This document shows, piece by piece, positions 1,958-46,158 of a stretch of DNA of 64,000 nt (the stretch's first letter is position 1; each line of letters opens with the position of its first letter). This stretch comes from Patescibacteria group bacterium. GTDB lineage: Bacteria > Patescibacteriota > Patescibacteriia > UBA2591 > UBA6264. A model generated the notes under the pieces. It saw nothing but the letters and a program-made list of their open reading frames with translations, made no database searches and was not told the origin of the DNA. The position numbers and the translations under genes are program-made. The stretch lies in contig JADHVF010000002.1 of the NCBI GenBank assembly GCA_016784145.1, positions 112,357 through 176,356 of the forward strand, read 5' to 3'.

Positions 1958-3044
1958 ATGCAAGAATTAATTTTAGAATTAAAAGAGTTTAAAAAGAGGC
2001 TTCAAGAAATTGGAGAATATCTTTGACCTTGCTAATAAAAAAATAATTATTAAAAAAATCGAAGTTGAAATGACCTTGCCGAGTTTTTGGGAAGATAGGG
2101 TTAGAGCTGAAACAGAATCAAAAAAATTAGAAAAATTAAAACAAAATTTAGCCAAATACCAAAAAATAAAAGTAGAAGTAAATGATTTATTAGAAATATC
2201 TAATATAGACAAAATAGATCAAACAGTTAATTTAAGAAAAGAAATAGAAATACAATTTTCTAAAGTAAAAAAACAACTCCTTGATTTTGAAGAGTTGTGT
2301 TTTTTAAATGGAAAATACGACCAAGAAAATGCATGGTTGTCTATATTTGCTGGAGCAGGAGGAGATGATGCTCAGGATTGGGTTGAAATGCTTTTAAGAA
2401 TGTATTCAAAGTATGCTAAGCAAAAAGAATGGGATTTTAGAATTGTTGAAGAATCAAAAGGAACAGAAGCAGGACTTAAAAGCGTGGTAATAGAAGTGAG
2501 AGGAGATTTTGCTTATGGATTTTTAAAAAATGAAGCAGGAGTTCATCGTTTAGTTAGAATTTCTCCATTTGATGCTGAAAAAACGAGACATACATCTTTT
2601 GCAATGGTGCAAGTTTTACCAGAAATAGATGATATAGGAGTTGTTATTAAACAAGATGATTTAAAAGTTGATACTTTTTTATCGTCTGGACCAGGAGGAC
2701 AGCATATGCAAAAAACAGAGTCAGCTGTTCGAATTACTCATTTGCCAACTAAAATTTCAGCTAGTTCGCAAGTTGCTAGGTCTCAGTCTAAAAACAAAGA
2801 CAGGGCTTTAAAAATTTTAAAATCAAAATTATATCATTATTTTCAGGCAGTTAAACAAGAAGAAAAGGATATGATAAAAGGGGAATTTAAGTCAGCTTCA
2901 TGGGGAAATCAAATTCGTTCATATGTTTTGCATCCATATAAAATGGTTAAGGATTTAAGAACAAAATTTGAGACAAATGATGTGAATTCAATCTTAGATG
3001 GCAACTTAAATGAAATAATTGAAAGCAAATTAAAATTTAAATAA
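1958..3044 (+). CDS. prfB: Peptide chain release factor 2, expressed through a programmed +1 ribosomal frameshift (frame 0 from 1958 to the in-frame TGA at 2024-2026, then the +1 frame from 2025 to 3044)
   Basis: The main body has SPF (RF2-specific), the GGQ motif (SGPGGQHMQKTESAVRITHLPT) and an RF2 domain layout. The body ORF has no ATG. Upstream in frame 0, an ATG at 1958 encodes MQELILELKEFKKRLQEIGEYL, followed by CTT TGA C, which is the canonical prfB frameshift heptamer. Confidence 0.9.
2012..2027 (+). promoter_or_regulatory. prfB autoregulatory +1 frameshift site (SD-like GGAG, then TAT CTT TGA C)
   Basis: The sequence ggagaatatCTTTGAc matches the E. coli site AGGGGGUAUCUUUGAC. The P-site CUU is followed by a UGA stop with C at +4, and an internal SD-like GGAG sits 5 nt upstream of CUU. 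Confidence 0.8.
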
Positions 3045-8034: not shown

Positions 8035-9240
8035 ATGGCAGCTAAAGAAAAATTCGAAAGAACAAAGCCGCATTTAAATGTTGGTACAATTGGTCATGTT
8101 GACCATGGCAAAACAGCTTTAACAGCGGCAATATTAAAAGTTTTAACAGCTTCTGGAGGAAAGGCTGAAACAAGAAGTGTTGATGAAATTGACAATGCTC
8201 CTGAAGAAAGAAGTAGAGGAATTACAATTTCGTTAGCTCATGTCGAGTATGAAACAGACAAAAGACATTATGCTCACATTGATTGTCCAGGACATGCTGA
8301 CTATGTTAAAAACATGGTTACTGGTGCAGCTCAAATGGATGGAGCTATTTTGGTTATTTCAGCCACTGATGGTCCAATGCCTCAAACAAGAGAGCATATC
8401 TTGCTGGCTAGACAAGTTGGAGTACCATCTATTGTCGTGTTTTTAAACAAGACAGACCAAGTTGAAGACAAAGAGTTGATTGAACTTGTTAAAGAAGAAG
8501 TTAAAGACATTCTTAAAAAGTATGAATTTCCAGGAGATGAGACCCCTATTATTGAAGGCTCGGCTACTAAAGCAATAGAATGTGGTTGTGGAAAAACAGA
8601 TTGCGAGCATTGTGGACCAATCTTAAAATTGCTTGATTCCCTTGATTCATATATTCCAGAACCAAAAAGAGATACAGAGAAACCATTTTTAATGCCAATT
8701 GAAGATATTTTTTCAATTGAAGGCAGGGGAACAGTTGTTACTGGAAAAATTGAAAAAGGAATTGTTAAATTAAATGATGAGATTGAAATTGTAGGATTAA
8801 GACCAACAACTAAAACAATTGTTACGGGCATAGAAATGTTTAGGAAGTCATTAGAAGAAGGGTTTGCTGGAGATAATGCAGGTATTCTTTTAAGAGGAAC
8901 TAAAAAAACAGACATTGAAAGAGGGCAAGTAATTGCTAAGCCAGGGACTGTTACTCCTCATACAGAATTTGATTGTCAGGTTTATATTTTATCCAAAGAA
9001 GAAGGGGGCAGACATACCCCATTTTTGGCTGGGTATAAGCCCCAGTTTTATATTAGAACAACTGATGTTACTGGCGAAGCGTTTTTACCAGAAGGAACTG
9101 AAATGGCTATGCCAGGGGATACATTAGACCTTAAGGTTAAACTCTATAAACCAATTGCACTTGAAGAAAAGCAAAGATTTGCAATTAGAGAAGGTGGGAG
9201 AACAGTTGGAGCAGGAGTTGTAACAAAGATAACCAAGTAA
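8035..9240 (+). CDS. tuf: Translation elongation factor Tu
   Basis: [16 protein letters not shown] and NKTD GTPase motifs with full three-domain conservation. It carries an unusual Cys4 insertion in domain I (see findings). Confidence 0.97.
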
Positions 9241-14888: not shown

Positions 14889-15260
14889 ATGATTCAAGTA
14901 GAATCAAAACTTAAAGTTATTGACAACTCGGGTGCAAAAATTATTATGTGCATCAAGGTTTTGGGTGGATACAAAAGAAGATATGCCAGAGTTGGAGATA
15001 TGATTACAGCTAGTGTAAAAAAAGCAACTCCTCATACTTTGACAAAAAAAGGGGAAGTTGTTTATGCTGTTATTGTCAGAACAAAAGCCCCTGTTAAAAG
15101 AAAAGATGGCACTTATGTTAGATTTGATGACAATGCTGCTGTAATTATTGATAAAAAAACAAAATTACCAAAAGGCAATAGAATTTTTAGTGTAGTCTCT
15201 AGAGAGTTAAGAGCCAAAGGTTATCTTAAAATTATTTCATTATCTCCAGAAGTATTATGA
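14889..15260 (+). CDS. rplN: 50S ribosomal protein L14 (uL14)
   Basis: MIQ.ES.L.V.DNSGAK and full-length uL14 conservation. Confidence 0.96.
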
Positions 15261-25498: not shown

Positions 25499-26194
25499 AT
25501 GTACAAAGTTAAGCTTGAACAATTTCAGGGGCCATTTCATCTATTGCTTAAGTTAATTGAAAAACAGGAAATGGATGTTAGTGAAATTTCTTTAGCAAAA
25601 GTATTAGATGAATTTTTATATTACATTGAATCATCAAATCAAATAGAATCTAAAGAATTGATTGATTTTTTAGAGATAGCTTCAAGAATAATTTTATTAA
25701 AATCAAGATTGTTGGTTTTGCCAGGAAATGAATATGATGATTTAGAGGGAGATGATAATCTTATAAATAGAATTAAAATTTATCAAAAATTTGCTTCTGC
25801 TTCTAAGCAAGTATTTGAATTATTGGCTAGCTCAAATCATTCTTTTTCTAGAAAAAGAATTCCTTTAAATATGTCTAAAGATTATTCTGTTGACTTAAAG
25901 ATAACTCCTAAAATTATTCATAAAACTTGGCAAAACATTGTTAAAGAAATTTTAAAATATAAACAAGCAACCAAAGTAATAAAAATAAAAACAATCTCTT
26001 TAAGAAAAAAAATAAATGAGCTTCTTTTGCTTGTAAAACAAAAAGAAAAAATTATTTTTAATAATATAATTAATAGAAAAAAAACAGAGGAAAAAATAGT
26101 AATATTTTTAGCAATGTTAGAGCTTGTAAAAAAAGAGCAAATAAAAATAAGCCAAGCAGAGCTATTTGGTGAAATTATTATAAGAAAAAAATGA
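25499..26194 (+). CDS. scpA: Segregation and condensation protein A
   Basis: MYKVKLEQFQGPFHLLLKLIEKQEMDVSEISLAKV is the ScpA N-terminal signature. Confidence 0.88.
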   Translation: MYKVKLEQFQGPFHLLLKLIEKQEMDVSEISLAKVLDEFLYYIESSNQIESKELIDFLEIASRIILLKSRLLVLPGNEYDDLEGDDNLINRIKIYQKFASASKQVFELLASSNHSFSRKRIPLNMSKDYSVDLKITPKIIHKTWQNIVKEILKYKQATKVIKIKTISLRKKINELLLLVKQKEKIIFNNIINRKKTEEKIVIFLAMLELVKKEQIKISQAELFGEIIIRKK

Positions 26195-43603: not shown

Positions 43604-44602
43604 TTATTTTAATAATTGTTTTACTTTTTTAATAATATCTTTGTAGGTTGTGTAATATTTCTTTTCAAGAGGGGCACTGGTTGGGGCAGGAGAATCAGGC
43701 AAGCAGACTCTTTTGATTGGTTTTTTTAGATACTTGAATCCTTTATCAGCAACCAAAGCAGAAATCTCTCCAGCAACTCCGCCAGTAAGCCAGGCTGCCT
43801 CAGCAATAATTAATTTCCCTGTTTTTTTAATAGAATTAATAATAATTGGGAGGTCTATTGGTTTAACAGTTCTGATATCAATTATTTCAGCATCAATTTT
43901 ATATTTTTTTAATTCTTCGCCTGCTTTTATGGCTTCATTGGCCATATACGATATTCCAACAATTGTGATATCTTTGCCTTTTTTTCTTATTACCCCTTTT
44001 CCAATTGGAACAGAGTATATTTTTTTTGGAACATTTTCTTTCAGTCCATAAAGCCATCTATCATCAATATATACTACAGGATTATTTGATTTAATGGCTG
44101 ATATCATTAATCCTTTAGCATCATATGGAGTAGCTGGCATTACAACTTGTAGTCCAGGAATATGAGCAAATAAAGATTGGAGTGCTTGAGAATGTTGGGC
44201 TCCTTGTTCACCTCCACGATTAATAATAGGCCAAATTACAACTGATGCGGTTGATTGTCCACCAAAAATATAGTCCCAATTAGCCGCTTGGTTTATTATT
44301 GGGTCTAATCCATAAATCATAAAATCCATTCTTGGATGAACTACAATTGGTCTCATGCCAGCAATACTTGCTCCAATGCCAGCTCCAGTAATAGCATTTT
44401 CAGAAACAGGTGTATCAATTACTCGTTCTTCTCCGTATTTTTCTAATAACCCATTACAAGTATTTCCAACATACCAGGGGCTTTTAACTCCTTGTCCAAT
44501 TAAAAAGACAGATTTGTCTTGACCCATTGCCTGATGGATTGCTTCATTAATTGCCAAACTATAAGTTAATAATCTTTGGTTTTTTTTATTTTTCATATAC
44601 AT
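43604..44602 (-). CDS. Thiamine-diphosphate-dependent 2-oxoacid dehydrogenase E1 beta-like subunit (transketolase pyrimidine-binding plus C-terminal domains)
   Basis: Transket_pyr motifs (VFLIGQGV, GIGASIAGMRPIVV) and a C-terminal transketolase_C fold. It is adjacent to an E1 alpha-like gene. Confidence 0.8.
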   Translation of the reverse strand: MYMKNKKNQRLLTYSLAINEAIHQAMGQDKSVFLIGQGVKSPWYVGNTCNGLLEKYGEERVIDTPVSENAITGAGIGASIAGMRPIVVHPRMDFMIYGLDPIINQAANWDYIFGGQSTASVVIWPIINRGGEQGAQHSQALQSLFAHIPGLQVVMPATPYDAKGLMISAIKSNNPVVYIDDRWLYGLKENVPKKIYSVPIGKGVIRKKGKDITIVGISYMANEAIKAGEELKKYKIDAEIIDIRTVKPIDLPIIINSIKKTGKLIIAEAAWLTGGVAGEISALVADKGFKYLKKPIKRVCLPDSPAPTSAPLEKKYYTTYKDIIKKVKQLLK

Positions 44603-45564: not shown

Positions 45565-46158
45565 TTAATTTTTGATAATTTTTTTAATTGTTTTGAAAAT
45601 TATTTTTAAATCATTTAAAAATGACATTTGTTTGACATATTTTATTTGTAGTTTAACTTTTTTTGGTCTTATTTCTTCTAAATAAGTTTTTTCAGGGTCA
45701 TGGCTATTTTTTAAGATTTCTCCTTCATTAGAATTCCATAATGATGCCAAGTCAGTTATTCCTGGTCTTATATTAAAGATAATTTGTTCGTCCTCTTTAT
45801 ATAGTTTAGCATATTCAGGCACTTCTGGTCTAGGGCCAACCAAGCTCATTTCTCCCTTAATTACATTAAATAACTGAGGAAGTTCATCAATTTTGTATTT
45901 TCTTAAAAATTTTCCTGTTTTAGTTAATCGTATGTCATTATTAGGAGTCGAAGGCCCTCCTATTTTATTAGCATTTAAAACCATTGTACGAAACTTATAA
46001 ACATTAAATGGTTTTTTATTTTTACCAATACGAATTCCTTTATAAATAACAGGGCCATTAGATGTTATTTTTATTAGCATTGTAATGATAATAAAAACAG
46101 GGGATAGAATAATTATCCCTATTAAGGAAAAACAAATATCAAAAATTCGTTTAATCAT
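45565..46158 (-). CDS. Small monotopic phosphoglycosyl transferase (Bac_transf family, PglC/WbaP C-domain-like); probably the initiating sugar-1-P transferase
   Basis: N-terminal re-entrant helix and the conserved MSLVGPRPE / ...RPG.T motifs. Confidence 0.85.
   Translation of the reverse strand: MIKRIFDICFSLIGIIILSPVFIIITMLIKITSNGPVIYKGIRIGKNKKPFNVYKFRTMVLNANKIGGPSTPNNDIRLTKTGKFLRKYKIDELPQLFNVIKGEMSLVGPRPEVPEYAKLYKEDEQIIFNIRPGITDLASLWNSNEGEILKNSHDPEKTYLEEIRPKKVKLQIKYVKQMSFLNDLKIIFKTIKKIIKN

What the first reader, a model, noticed from the sequence alone, without database searches (positions are those of the whole stretch)
1958..2030. The prfB programmed +1 frameshift is intact and has the textbook geometry
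The RF2 body ORF (2010-3044) has no ATG. The real start is the ATG at 1958 in frame 0, which runs into CTT TGA C at 2021-2027, the autoregulatory UGA decoded by RF2 itself. A GGAG lies 5 nt upstream of CUU and would act as the stimulatory internal Shine-Dalgarno. The joined protein reads ...EIGEYL-D-LANKK, parallel to E. coli ...RGYL-D-YDA. An automated caller would truncate or mis-start this gene.
Basis: partly seen in the sequence, partly recalled or inferred. Interest (0 to 1): 0.55.

Follow-up and report, generated by a model that had tools for sequence, protein, structure and literature searches.

The report
Ordinary prfB +1 frameshift site
This is the well-known self-regulating +1 reading-frame shift in the release factor 2 gene (prfB), here in an uncultured Patescibacteria genome: it is real and intact but ordinary, and only its weak upstream Shine-Dalgarno-like helper element departs from the textbook.

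Summary
ATG 1958 opens a 22-codon frame-0 ORF that ends CTT TGA C (2021-2027). The +1 frame then runs 339 codons to TAA 3042-3044. The joined 361-aa product is a full-length RF2: TIGR00020 scores 431 bits against a cutoff of 370, it aligns without gaps across the junction to B. subtilis and E. coli RF2, and the SPF and GGQ motifs are present. The same cassette sits at the same place in 66 of 80 related loci, and in an independent assembly of a 99%-identical strain. Codon periodicity switches frame exactly at the site. Automated callers do mis-start the gene, for example at TTG 2010 (344 aa).

One part is not textbook. The SD-like element is only GGAG (4 bp), and it lies 5 nt before CUU rather than 3. 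In addition, the genes of this 64-kb window essentially lack Shine-Dalgarno (SD) sequences at their starts. Whether GGAG stimulates shifting is therefore unproven.

prfB frameshifting occurs in 64-80% of bacteria, and SD loss at the site is already documented. Verdict: a real feature, already known, of low interest.

The parts
1958..2026 (+). prfB ORF1 (frame 0). ATG start, 22 sense codons (MQELILELKEFKKRLQEIGEYL) and the in-frame TGA.
   Evidence: Searches give the sequence. The peptide is homologous to the N-termini of in-frame RF2 relatives. An ATG lies 21-25 codons upstream of the site in most relatives. Third-position variability follows frame 0 upstream of the site.
2012..2015 (+). GGAG, an SD-like tetramer 5 nt upstream of CUU. 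It is a possible, unproven frameshift stimulator.
   Evidence: 4 bp with the anti-SD core, -3.7 kcal/mol by stacking alone.: -6.4 by duplexfold against -10.7 for E. coli. The register is one nt further from CUU than in E. coli. GGAG is shared by L001-L003 and L081, but L082 has CGAG.
2018..2020 (+). UAU, the codion in the E site when CUU is in the P site. It is the same codon as in E. coli prfB.
   Evidence: The 10-mer TATCTTTGAC occurs once on the + strand, at 2018. The E. coli comparison rests on AGG GGG UAU CUU UGA C, quoted from memory and consistent with PMC12421855.
2021..2024 (+). Slippery sequence CUU U. Peptidyl-tRNA-Leu re-pairs from CUU to UUU.
   Evidence: This sequence is invariant across 26 ungapped related loci, with entropy 0. 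The mechanism is inferred from the E. coli system (PMC10798248, introduction).
2024..2027 (+). UGA C. An RF2-specific stop codon in a weak termination context, which acts as the autoregulatory sensor.
   Evidence: TGA followed by C is conserved in 65 of 66 sites in relatives; L013 has T instead. TGA is a genuine but rare stop in this window, ending 4 of 62 genes.
2025..3044 (+). prfB ORF2 (+1 frame). 339 codons plus TAA, encoding RF2 residues 23-361 with the PCRF and RF-1 domains.
2562..2570 (+). SPF tripeptide (S202-P203-F204), the RF2 stop-codon recognition motif.
   Evidence: These residues are invariant in the alignment.
2694..2702 (+). GGQ (G246-G247-Q248), the peptidyl-tRNA hydrolysis motif.
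   Evidence: These residues are invariant in the alignment.
2010..2012 (+). TTG in the +1 frame. This is the false start taken by automated gene callers and gives a 344-aa product.
   Evidence: P0001 begins MENIFD. The truncated product loses profile positions 2-11 and about 10 bits against TIGR00020.

Best explanation
Region 1958-3044 is prfB, the gene for release factor 2, in a low-GC (29%) Patescibacteria genome. It is expressed by the classical programmed +1 ribosomal frameshift.

The proposed sequence of events is as follows. Ribosomes start at ATG 1958 and translate 22 codons. They then pause with CUU (Leu) in the P site and the poorly terminating UGA-C in the A site. When RF2 is abundant, it terminates translation there and only a 22-aa peptide is made. 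When RF2 is scarce, peptidyl-tRNA-Leu slips from CUU to UUU. GAC (Asp) is then read, and translation continues in the +1 frame to give the 361-aa RF2 (...EIGEYL-D-LANKK...). This forms a negative feedback loop on RF2 level.

What is shown here: the sequence anatomy, the RF2 identity of the joined product, homology of the frame-0 peptide, conservation of the cassette, and the frame switch in substitution pattern.

What is inferred from the E. coli and F. johnsoniae systems: that shifting and autoregulation actually occur.

The contribution of the upstream GGAG is uncertain. It is weak, it lies one to two nt further from CUU than the canonical SD, and it sits in a genome whose start sites lack SDs. 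Shifting may therefore be largely SD-independent and of modest efficiency. That would be tolerable, because UGA ends only about 6% of genes here.
For: - **Anatomy:**
- **RF2 identity:** TIGR00020 scores 431.1 bits against a cutoff of 370 and covers profile positions 2-352 of 353. PCRF and RF-1 domains are present.
- **Alignment to solved structures:** E = 1e-90 to B. subtilis RF2, aligned 2-360 to 4-363 with no gap at the junction. E. coli 'rgyldydakk' aligns to 'geyldlankk'.
- **N-terminal contribution:** the joined product scores higher than the alternatives. It gets 431.1 bits, against 421.5 for the TTG-2010 product and 412.3 for the ATG-2070 product. Only the joined product covers profile positions 2-11.
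- **Frame-0 peptide homology:** it aligns residue 1-to-1 with an in-frame relative, P0004 (E = 7e-13 over 46 aa, no gaps). The DNA of that relative confirms it has no frameshift.
- **Conservation:** 66 of 80 related genomic loci have [C/A]TT TGA [C/T] at the same place, with an ATG 21-25 codons upstream.
- **Independent assembly:** a 99%-identical strain from a separate ENA assembly has the identical cassette.
- **Frame switch:** positional entropy shows the codon phase shifting by +1 at the site. Upstream, by codon position in frame 0, it is 1.54/1.20/1.76. Downstream, in the +1 frame, it is 1.20/0.97/1.61.
- **TGA is a stop here:** 4 of 62 genes end in TGA, and coding density is 96% under table 11.
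- **Literature:** the mechanism and its prevalence (64-80% of bacteria) are described in PMC10798248 and PMC12421855.
Against: - There is no expression data of any kind for this organism.
- The stimulatory SD is sub-canonical: 4 bp, with 5 nt between it and CUU instead of 3.
- Start regions in the window are depleted of SDs. The fraction with dG <= -4 is 0.05 at start regions, against 0.15 in mock regions and 0.25 inside genes. The ribosome may therefore not use its anti-SD.
- The 16S rRNA 3' end is not in the window, so the anti-SD sequence is assumed.
- The N-terminal peptide adds only about 10 bits to the family score.
Confidence: 0.95

Rival explanations
1. The frameshift occurs, but the GGAG is not a functional stimulator. 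On this reading it is merely the Gly-Glu codon pair GGA GAA of the N-terminal helix, and shifting relies only on CUU-U slipperiness and the slow UGA-C stop. That is the situation shown for Flavobacterium johnsoniae and for SD-less sites in many clades. This rival concerns only one step of the best explanation.
For: - GGAG forms only 4 bp, and its register is one nt longer than in E. coli.
- The window's start regions are SD-depleted and A-rich.
- The relative L082 has CGAGAC at this position, with the CUU UGA C site intact.
- Several relatives have no SD-like run at all, for example L018, L060 and L066.
- PMC10798248 reports SD loss in many clades, no relation to genome-wide SD use, and SD-independent shifting in F. 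johnsoniae.
Against: - GGAG at exactly this spacing has a chance probability of about 0.3%. At a spacing of 3-6 nt it is about 1.1% in this genome.
- It is retained in the four nearest genomes, L001-L003 and L081.
- It is absent from the clade that lost the frameshift, where the sequence is CGG GAT TTT TTT GAT.
- In F. johnsoniae, ablating the SD still had a subtle fitness cost (PMC10798248).
Confidence: 0.45
2. There is no frameshift. RF2 is made from the +1 frame alone, starting at TTG 2010 (344 aa) or ATG 2070 (324 aa), as gene callers annotate it. The upstream 22-codon ORF would then be fortuitous.
For: - TTG 2010 is an allowed start, and AAGAGG lies 10 nt upstream of it.
- The truncated products still pass the TIGR00020 cutoff, at 421.5 and 412.3 bits.
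- Public callers produced such models.
Against: - The frame-0 peptide is homologous to the N-terminus of in-frame RF2s, residue for residue.
- The 22-codon ORF, its ATG and CTT TGA C are conserved across phyla.
- The substitution pattern upstream of the site follows frame 0.
- 61 of 62 window genes start with ATG, and essentially none use an SD, so an SD-led TTG start would be out of character.
- The truncated forms lack part of RF2 domain 1.
Confidence: 0.03
3. The stop codon is an assembly or sequencing indel, or a pseudogene lesion in a decaying gene.
For: MAG-derived sequence can carry homopolymer indels. The site lies next to a T run.
Against: - The identical cassette occurs in an independent assembly of a near-identical strain and in 66 of 80 relatives.
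- The interruption is exactly the canonical CUU UGA C.
- The rest of the ORF is intact, with all catalytic motifs.
Confidence: 0.02

Closest known systems
E. coli prfB programmed +1 frameshift (RF2 autoregulation; Craigen and Caskey 1986, as reviewed in PMC10798248 and PMC12421855)
   Same: - It is the orthologous gene.
- A short ORF1 (22 codons here, 25 in E. coli) ends in the identical 10-nt core UAU CUU UGA C.
- ORF2 lies in the +1 frame.
- The junction is ...YL-D... at the same position in the protein alignment.
- A purine-rich element lies upstream of the site.
   Different: The SD-like element is GGAG (4 bp) rather than AGGGGG (6 bp), and it is 5 nt rather than 3 nt before CUU. The host genome appears not to use SDs for initiation, unlike E. 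coli.
Flavobacterium johnsoniae / Bacteroidia prfB frameshift in SD-blind ribosomes (Naeem et al. 2024, PMC10798248)
   Same: - The genome has SD-depleted, A-rich start regions.
- UGA is a rare stop: about 6% here, against 7% reported for F. johnsoniae (PMC12421855).
- The prfB frameshift site is retained all the same.
   Different: F. johnsoniae keeps a 'perfect' SD at the site, whereas this one has only GGAG. Sequestration of the anti-SD by bS21/bS18/bS6 is demonstrated there and untested here. The phylum also differs (Patescibacteria).
prfB sites with degenerate or absent SD (for example Winogradskyella psychrotolerans, Planctomycetota, Cyanobacteria, Francisella, Buchnera; PMC10798248)
   Same: The CUU UGA C core is intact, with a weak or missing SD. 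The window's value of -3.7 kcal/mol sits at that paper's -4 kcal/mol boundary, although my energy method differs from theirs.
   Different: A recognisable GGAG remains here and is shared by the nearest genomes.
Unframeshifted prfB of sister Patescibacteria (P0004 / L083)
   Same: The protein is 62-63% identical. The synteny is the same: HtrA-like protease, then prfB, then glmS. The N-terminus is homologous.
   Different: The sequence CGG GAT TTT TTT GAT is read in one frame, with no stop, no CUU and no GGAG.

Membership tests
prfB programmed +1 frameshift cassette | The joined product is a full-length RF2. | tested here: met
   TIGR00020 scores 431.1 bits, above the cutoff of 370, and covers profile positions 2-352 of 353. 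RF1 models score 243 bits, below their cutoffs. The product aligns end to end with solved RF2 structures.
prfB programmed +1 frameshift cassette | A short frame-0 ORF1 of about 21-25 codons starts at an initiation codon and encodes the RF2 N-terminus. | tested here: met
   ATG 1958 opens 22 codons. The peptide is homologous to in-frame relatives. The ORF1 length is conserved in relatives.
prfB programmed +1 frameshift cassette | ORF1 ends in the RF2-specific stop UGA, followed by C. | tested here: met
   TGA lies at 2024-2026 and C at 2027.
prfB programmed +1 frameshift cassette | The slippery sequence CUU U lies immediately before or overlapping the stop. | tested here: met
   CTTT lies at 2021-2024. 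It is invariant in 26 aligned loci.
prfB programmed +1 frameshift cassette | ORF2 lies in the +1 frame (not -1) and is open from the site to the natural stop. | tested here: met
   Region 2025-3044 holds 339 codons. Codon periodicity shifts by +1 at the site.
prfB programmed +1 frameshift cassette | An internal Shine-Dalgarno sequence (consensus AGGGGG/AGGAGG) lies 3 nt upstream of CUU. | tested here: inconclusive
   Only GGAG is present, 5 nt upstream. Its pairing energy is -3.7 kcal/mol by stacking and -6.4 by duplexfold, against -9.4 and -10.7 for E. coli. The register falls inside the 2-5 range seen among relatives but is not the canonical 3. The anti-SD of this organism is unknown. The element is dispensable in many clades (PMC10798248), so failing this row does not exclude membership.
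prfB programmed +1 frameshift cassette | Frameshifting actually occurs, and its efficiency falls as RF2 rises (autoregulation). | not testable with these tools
   This needs reporter assays, ribosome profiling or proteomics.
Class I release factor RF2 | PCRF and RF-1 domains, the SPF anticodon-like tripeptide, and the GGQ catalytic motif. | tested here: met
   PF03462 scores 166.6 bits and PF00472 scores 116.5 bits. S202-P203-F204 and G246-G247-Q248 are invariant in the alignment.
SD-independent (Bacteroidia-like) translation initiation | Start regions carry fewer SD matches than control regions (negative FSD). | tested here: met
   In the 61-62 genes of this window only:
- 2 of 62 have an SD-like 4-mer, against a 7% background.
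- The fraction with dG <= -4 is 0.05 at start regions, against 0.15 in mock regions.
- Positions -10 to -2 are 56-66% A and 2-8% G.

My simple start-calling gave a poor positive control on GC-rich loci. The result therefore rests on the tight gene packing of this AT-rich window.
SD-independent (Bacteroidia-like) translation initiation | The anti-SD is present in 16S rRNA but sequestered by bS21/bS18/bS6. | not testable with these tools
   There is no rRNA in the window. This would need a ribosome structure.

The most novel reading that the evidence does not exclude
This Patescibacteria lineage may be a further group that initiates translation without Shine-Dalgarno pairing. Its leaders are A-rich and G-poor, with fewer SD matches than control regions, as in Bacteroidia and Verrucomicrobiales. 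On this reading its prfB keeps only a vestigial GGAG at a non-canonical distance, so RF2 frameshifting would be SD-independent and of low efficiency. The very low use of UGA stops would make that tolerable.
Probability: 0.4. Interest if true: 0.3.

Novelty: already known. Interest (0 to 1): 0.1.

Why it matters
The main value is for annotation. The correct RF2 here is 361 aa, made from join(1958..2023, 2025..3044). It is not the 344-aa TTG-2010 model that sits in public protein sets.

It also confirms that this organism reads UGA as a stop and keeps the RF2 feedback loop. That is a useful marker in a radiation where some lineages have reassigned UGA and lost RF2.

The only mildly interesting angle is the pairing of a weak, mis-spaced SD-like element with a genome sample whose start sites lack SDs. 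This adds a data point to the published picture that SD use at the prfB site varies and is uncoupled from SD use in initiation.

Tried and rejected
- **Heptamer frequency.** I tested whether CTTTGAC alone is over-represented. It is not: 6 found against 6.5 expected. The motif count carries no weight on its own.
- **Structured RNA.** A search for a structured RNA or downstream stimulator found nothing. There were no Rfam hits in the window, and the fold of 1990-2090 is no better than shuffles (z = -0.42).
- **tRNA-Leu or 16S in the window.** I looked for these to check the anticodon and the anti-SD. Neither is present.
- **Family search with the peptide alone.** The 22-aa peptide gave no hit because it is too short. 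Homology was shown through the joined product and pairwise alignment instead.
- **SD usage across groups of loci.** My crude start-calling performed poorly on the GC-rich control set (24% against a 15% background). Cross-group comparisons were dropped, and only the window result is used.
- **First SD-register script.** It picked wrong sites and crashed. It was redone.
- **TTG-2010 or ATG-2070 start, and the assembly-error reading.** These were considered and rejected for the reasons given under the rival explanations.

Full report
**What is in the sequence**

- ATG 1958-1960 opens a frame-0 ORF of 22 sense codons, MQELILELKEFKKRLQEIGEYL.
- That ORF ends CTT (2021-2023) TGA (2024-2026), followed by C (2027).
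- Reading from 2025 in the +1 frame gives 339 codons, DLANKK...KLKFK, ending at TAA 3042-3044.
- GGAG lies at 2012-2015 and is separated from CTT by AATAT (5 nt).

- The body ORF, as listed mechanically, begins at TTG 2010. It also contains an in-frame ATG at 2070. So 'has no ATG' is true only in the sense that no in-frame start can give a full-length protein. The +1 frame is closed upstream by TAA 1980-1982.
- The heptamer CTTTGAC is not rare here. It occurs six times in the window against 6.5 expected. The site's significance rests on its context, not on the motif count.

**Identity of the product**

The conceptually joined 361-aa protein is a full-length RF2.

- It scores 431.1 bits on NCBIfam TIGR00020 (prfB; cutoff 370) and covers profile positions 2-352 of 353. 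RF1 models reach only 243 bits, below their cutoffs.
- Pfam finds the PCRF and RF-1 domains.
- Against solved structures, it aligns from residue 2 to 360 with B. subtilis RF2 (E = 1e-90), with no gap at the junction. The E. coli segment 'rgyldydakk' aligns with 'geyldlankk'.
- The SPF (202-204) and GGQ (246-248) motifs are present and lie in invariant alignment columns.

**Is the frame-0 peptide really part of RF2?**

Several independent tests agree that it is.

- The truncated products score lower on TIGR00020 than the joined product. The TTG-2010 product scores 421.5 bits and the ATG-2070 product 412.3 bits. Both lose the first 10 to 31 profile positions.
- Some sister Patescibacteria have an unframeshifted prfB. 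One is P0004, whose DNA (L083) reads CGG GAT TTT TTT GAT in a single frame. The joined N-terminus of the window aligns with that protein residue 1 to residue 1, without gaps (E = 7e-13 over 46 aa).
- I took 26 related loci that have an ATG exactly 22 codons before the stop and aligned them without gaps.
  - Upstream of the site, positional entropy by codon position in frame 0 is 1.54/1.20/1.76.
  - Downstream, in the +1 frame, it is 1.20/0.97/1.61.
  - So the 'third position most variable, second least' signature jumps by one base exactly at the site, while CTTTGA itself has zero entropy.

**Conservation and provenance**

The nearest genomes are Patescibacteria (AH-259-L05 and AH-259-L07, 64-67% identity). 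The window has 28.8% GC and 96% coding density.

- Of 80 related genomic loci, 66 carry [C/A]TT TGA [C/T] at the homologous position. Nearly all of these have an ATG 21-25 codons upstream.
- An independent ENA assembly of a 99%-identical strain (L081) has the identical cassette and the same neighbours: CvpA, an HtrA-like protease, prfB, glmS and a corrinoid adenosyltransferase. An assembly error or pseudogene is therefore excluded for practical purposes.
- TGA is a real but rare stop in this organism. The 62 genes end in TAA 55 times, TGA 4 times and TAG 3 times.

**Mis-annotation**

- The public model of the near-identical gene (P0001) is 344 aa and begins MENIFD, which is TTG 2010 read in the +1 frame.
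- P0002 and P0003 also start in the +1 frame.
- Dozens of hits are 323-331 aa, starting at the internal Met.
- One NCBI record (P0012 / L082) does carry a slippage join: the gene span is 1090 nt. However, its protein reads GKV-ETVF-D where the DNA dictates GKVRDCL-D, so the join is placed four codons too early.

**The SD-like element: the one non-textbook part**

In the literature the stimulator is AGGGGG, lying three nucleotides before CUUU. It is thought to act like a compressed spring through pairing with the anti-SD (PMC10798248 introduction; PMC12421855).

The window differs in strength and spacing.

- Only GGAG can pair. That is 4 bp, with -3.7 kcal/mol by stacking, against -9.4 for the E. 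coli sequence (quoted from memory).
- With duplexfold the values are -6.4 against -10.7.
- When aligned on the CCUCC core, the GGAG register is one nucleotide further from CUU than in E. coli.
- Among the 66 relatives, registers 2-5 are all common, and several sites have no SD-like run at all. The window therefore falls within natural variation but is not canonical.

The evidence on whether GGAG is functional points both ways.

- In favour of function:
  - GGAG at a spacing of 3-6 nt has only about a 1% chance expectation in this genome.
  - It is kept in the four nearest genomes.
  - It is absent from the clade that lost the frameshift.
- Against function:
  - It also simply encodes Gly-Glu or Gly-Asp.
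  - The relative L082 has CGAG with the shift site intact.

The genes of this window also essentially lack SDs at initiation.

- Only 2 of 62 have an SD-like tetramer at -18 to -4, against a 7% background.
- The fraction of start regions pairing at <= -4 kcal/mol is 0.05, against 0.15 for mock regions and 0.25 inside genes.
- Positions -10 to -2 are 56-66% A and 2-8% G.

This resembles Bacteroidia, where ribosomes are blind to SDs and prfB shifts at about 7% efficiency without SD pairing. The large survey in that paper found no relation between SD strength at prfB and genome-wide SD use, and it found SD loss in many clades (PMC10798248). I therefore treat 'GGAG stimulates the shift' as roughly even odds.

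One caveat applies. My SD-usage method gave a weak positive control on GC-rich loci. In addition, the 16S rRNA is not in the window.

**Other checks**

There is no significant RNA structure around the site (z = -0.42). The window holds no Rfam family and no tRNA.

**Comparison with what is known, and verdict**

This is the orthologous instance of the textbook prfB +1 frameshift. The phenomenon is reported in 64% of 12,753 genomes (PMC12421855), or about 80% of bacteria (PMC10798248). NCBI handles it with a dedicated 'exception' model.

All defining sequence features are met except the canonical SD, which is known to be dispensable. Actual shifting and autoregulation cannot be tested here.

The finding is real, correctly interpreted in its essentials, useful for annotation, and not novel. 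The most novel reading left open is that this Patescibacteria lineage is another SD-independent group with a vestigial SD at prfB. That would be only modestly interesting, given the published survey.

Noticed in passing
window 1-64000 (start regions of 62 predicted genes): Start regions are depleted of Shine-Dalgarno matches. Only 2 of 62 genes have one, against a 7% background. The fraction with dG <= -4 is 0.05, against 0.15 in mock regions. The leaders are A-rich and G-poor, which resembles Bacteroidia and Verrucomicrobiales. Papers in the library that mention both Patescibacteria and Shine-Dalgarno did not appear to address this, judging by titles and abstracts only.
   Followed up: partly
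L004 3012-3018 and L033 2314-2320: Two Patescibacteria relatives (55-57% identical RF2) have ATT TGA C instead of CTT TGA C at the homologous site. Both have an ATG 22 codons upstream and a weak AGGG upstream of the site. An AUU-to-UUU slip would create a first-position mismatch, so this would be an unusual slippery codon.
   Followed up: no
L083 2055-2070 (P0004 clade): A sister clade at 61-63% identity (P0004, and by protein P0006, P0007, P0010, P0011, P0013, P0014) has lost the frameshift. The sequence CGG GAT TTT TTT GAT is read in one frame, within the same protease-prfB-glmS synteny.
   Followed up: partly
L082 2001-3090 (NCBI GCA_041649955.1, P0012): The deposited RF2 protein carries a slippage join placed about four codons too early. 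The protein reads GKV-ETVF-D, whereas the DNA CGA GAC TGT CTT TGA C implies GKVRDCL-D. This relative also has CGAG instead of GGAG.
   Followed up: yes
window 15257-15260, 26191-26194, 46155-46158: Three of the four TGA stops in the window lie in ATGA start/stop overlaps with the next gene. UGA use therefore seems largely confined to coupled gene junctions.
   Followed up: no
window 8035-9240 and 43604-44602 (-): Only two genes have an SD-like run upstream: tuf (EF-Tu; GAGGA at about -14) and a transketolase-family / pyruvate dehydrogenase beta-like gene (AAGGAG at about -17). This may be chance.
   Followed up: partly
window 2685-2720 (RF2 residues 243-254): The sequence around GGQ is SSGPGGQHMQKTES. 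It is shared only with the two nearest genomes (P0002, P0003). Other Patescibacteria have ASGHGGQNVQKNET, and B. subtilis has ASGAGGQHVNTTDS.
   Followed up: no
window 1-64000: There is no tRNA, rRNA or any Rfam family in 64 kb. Coding density is about 96%, and 55 of 62 genes end in TAA.
   Followed up: no
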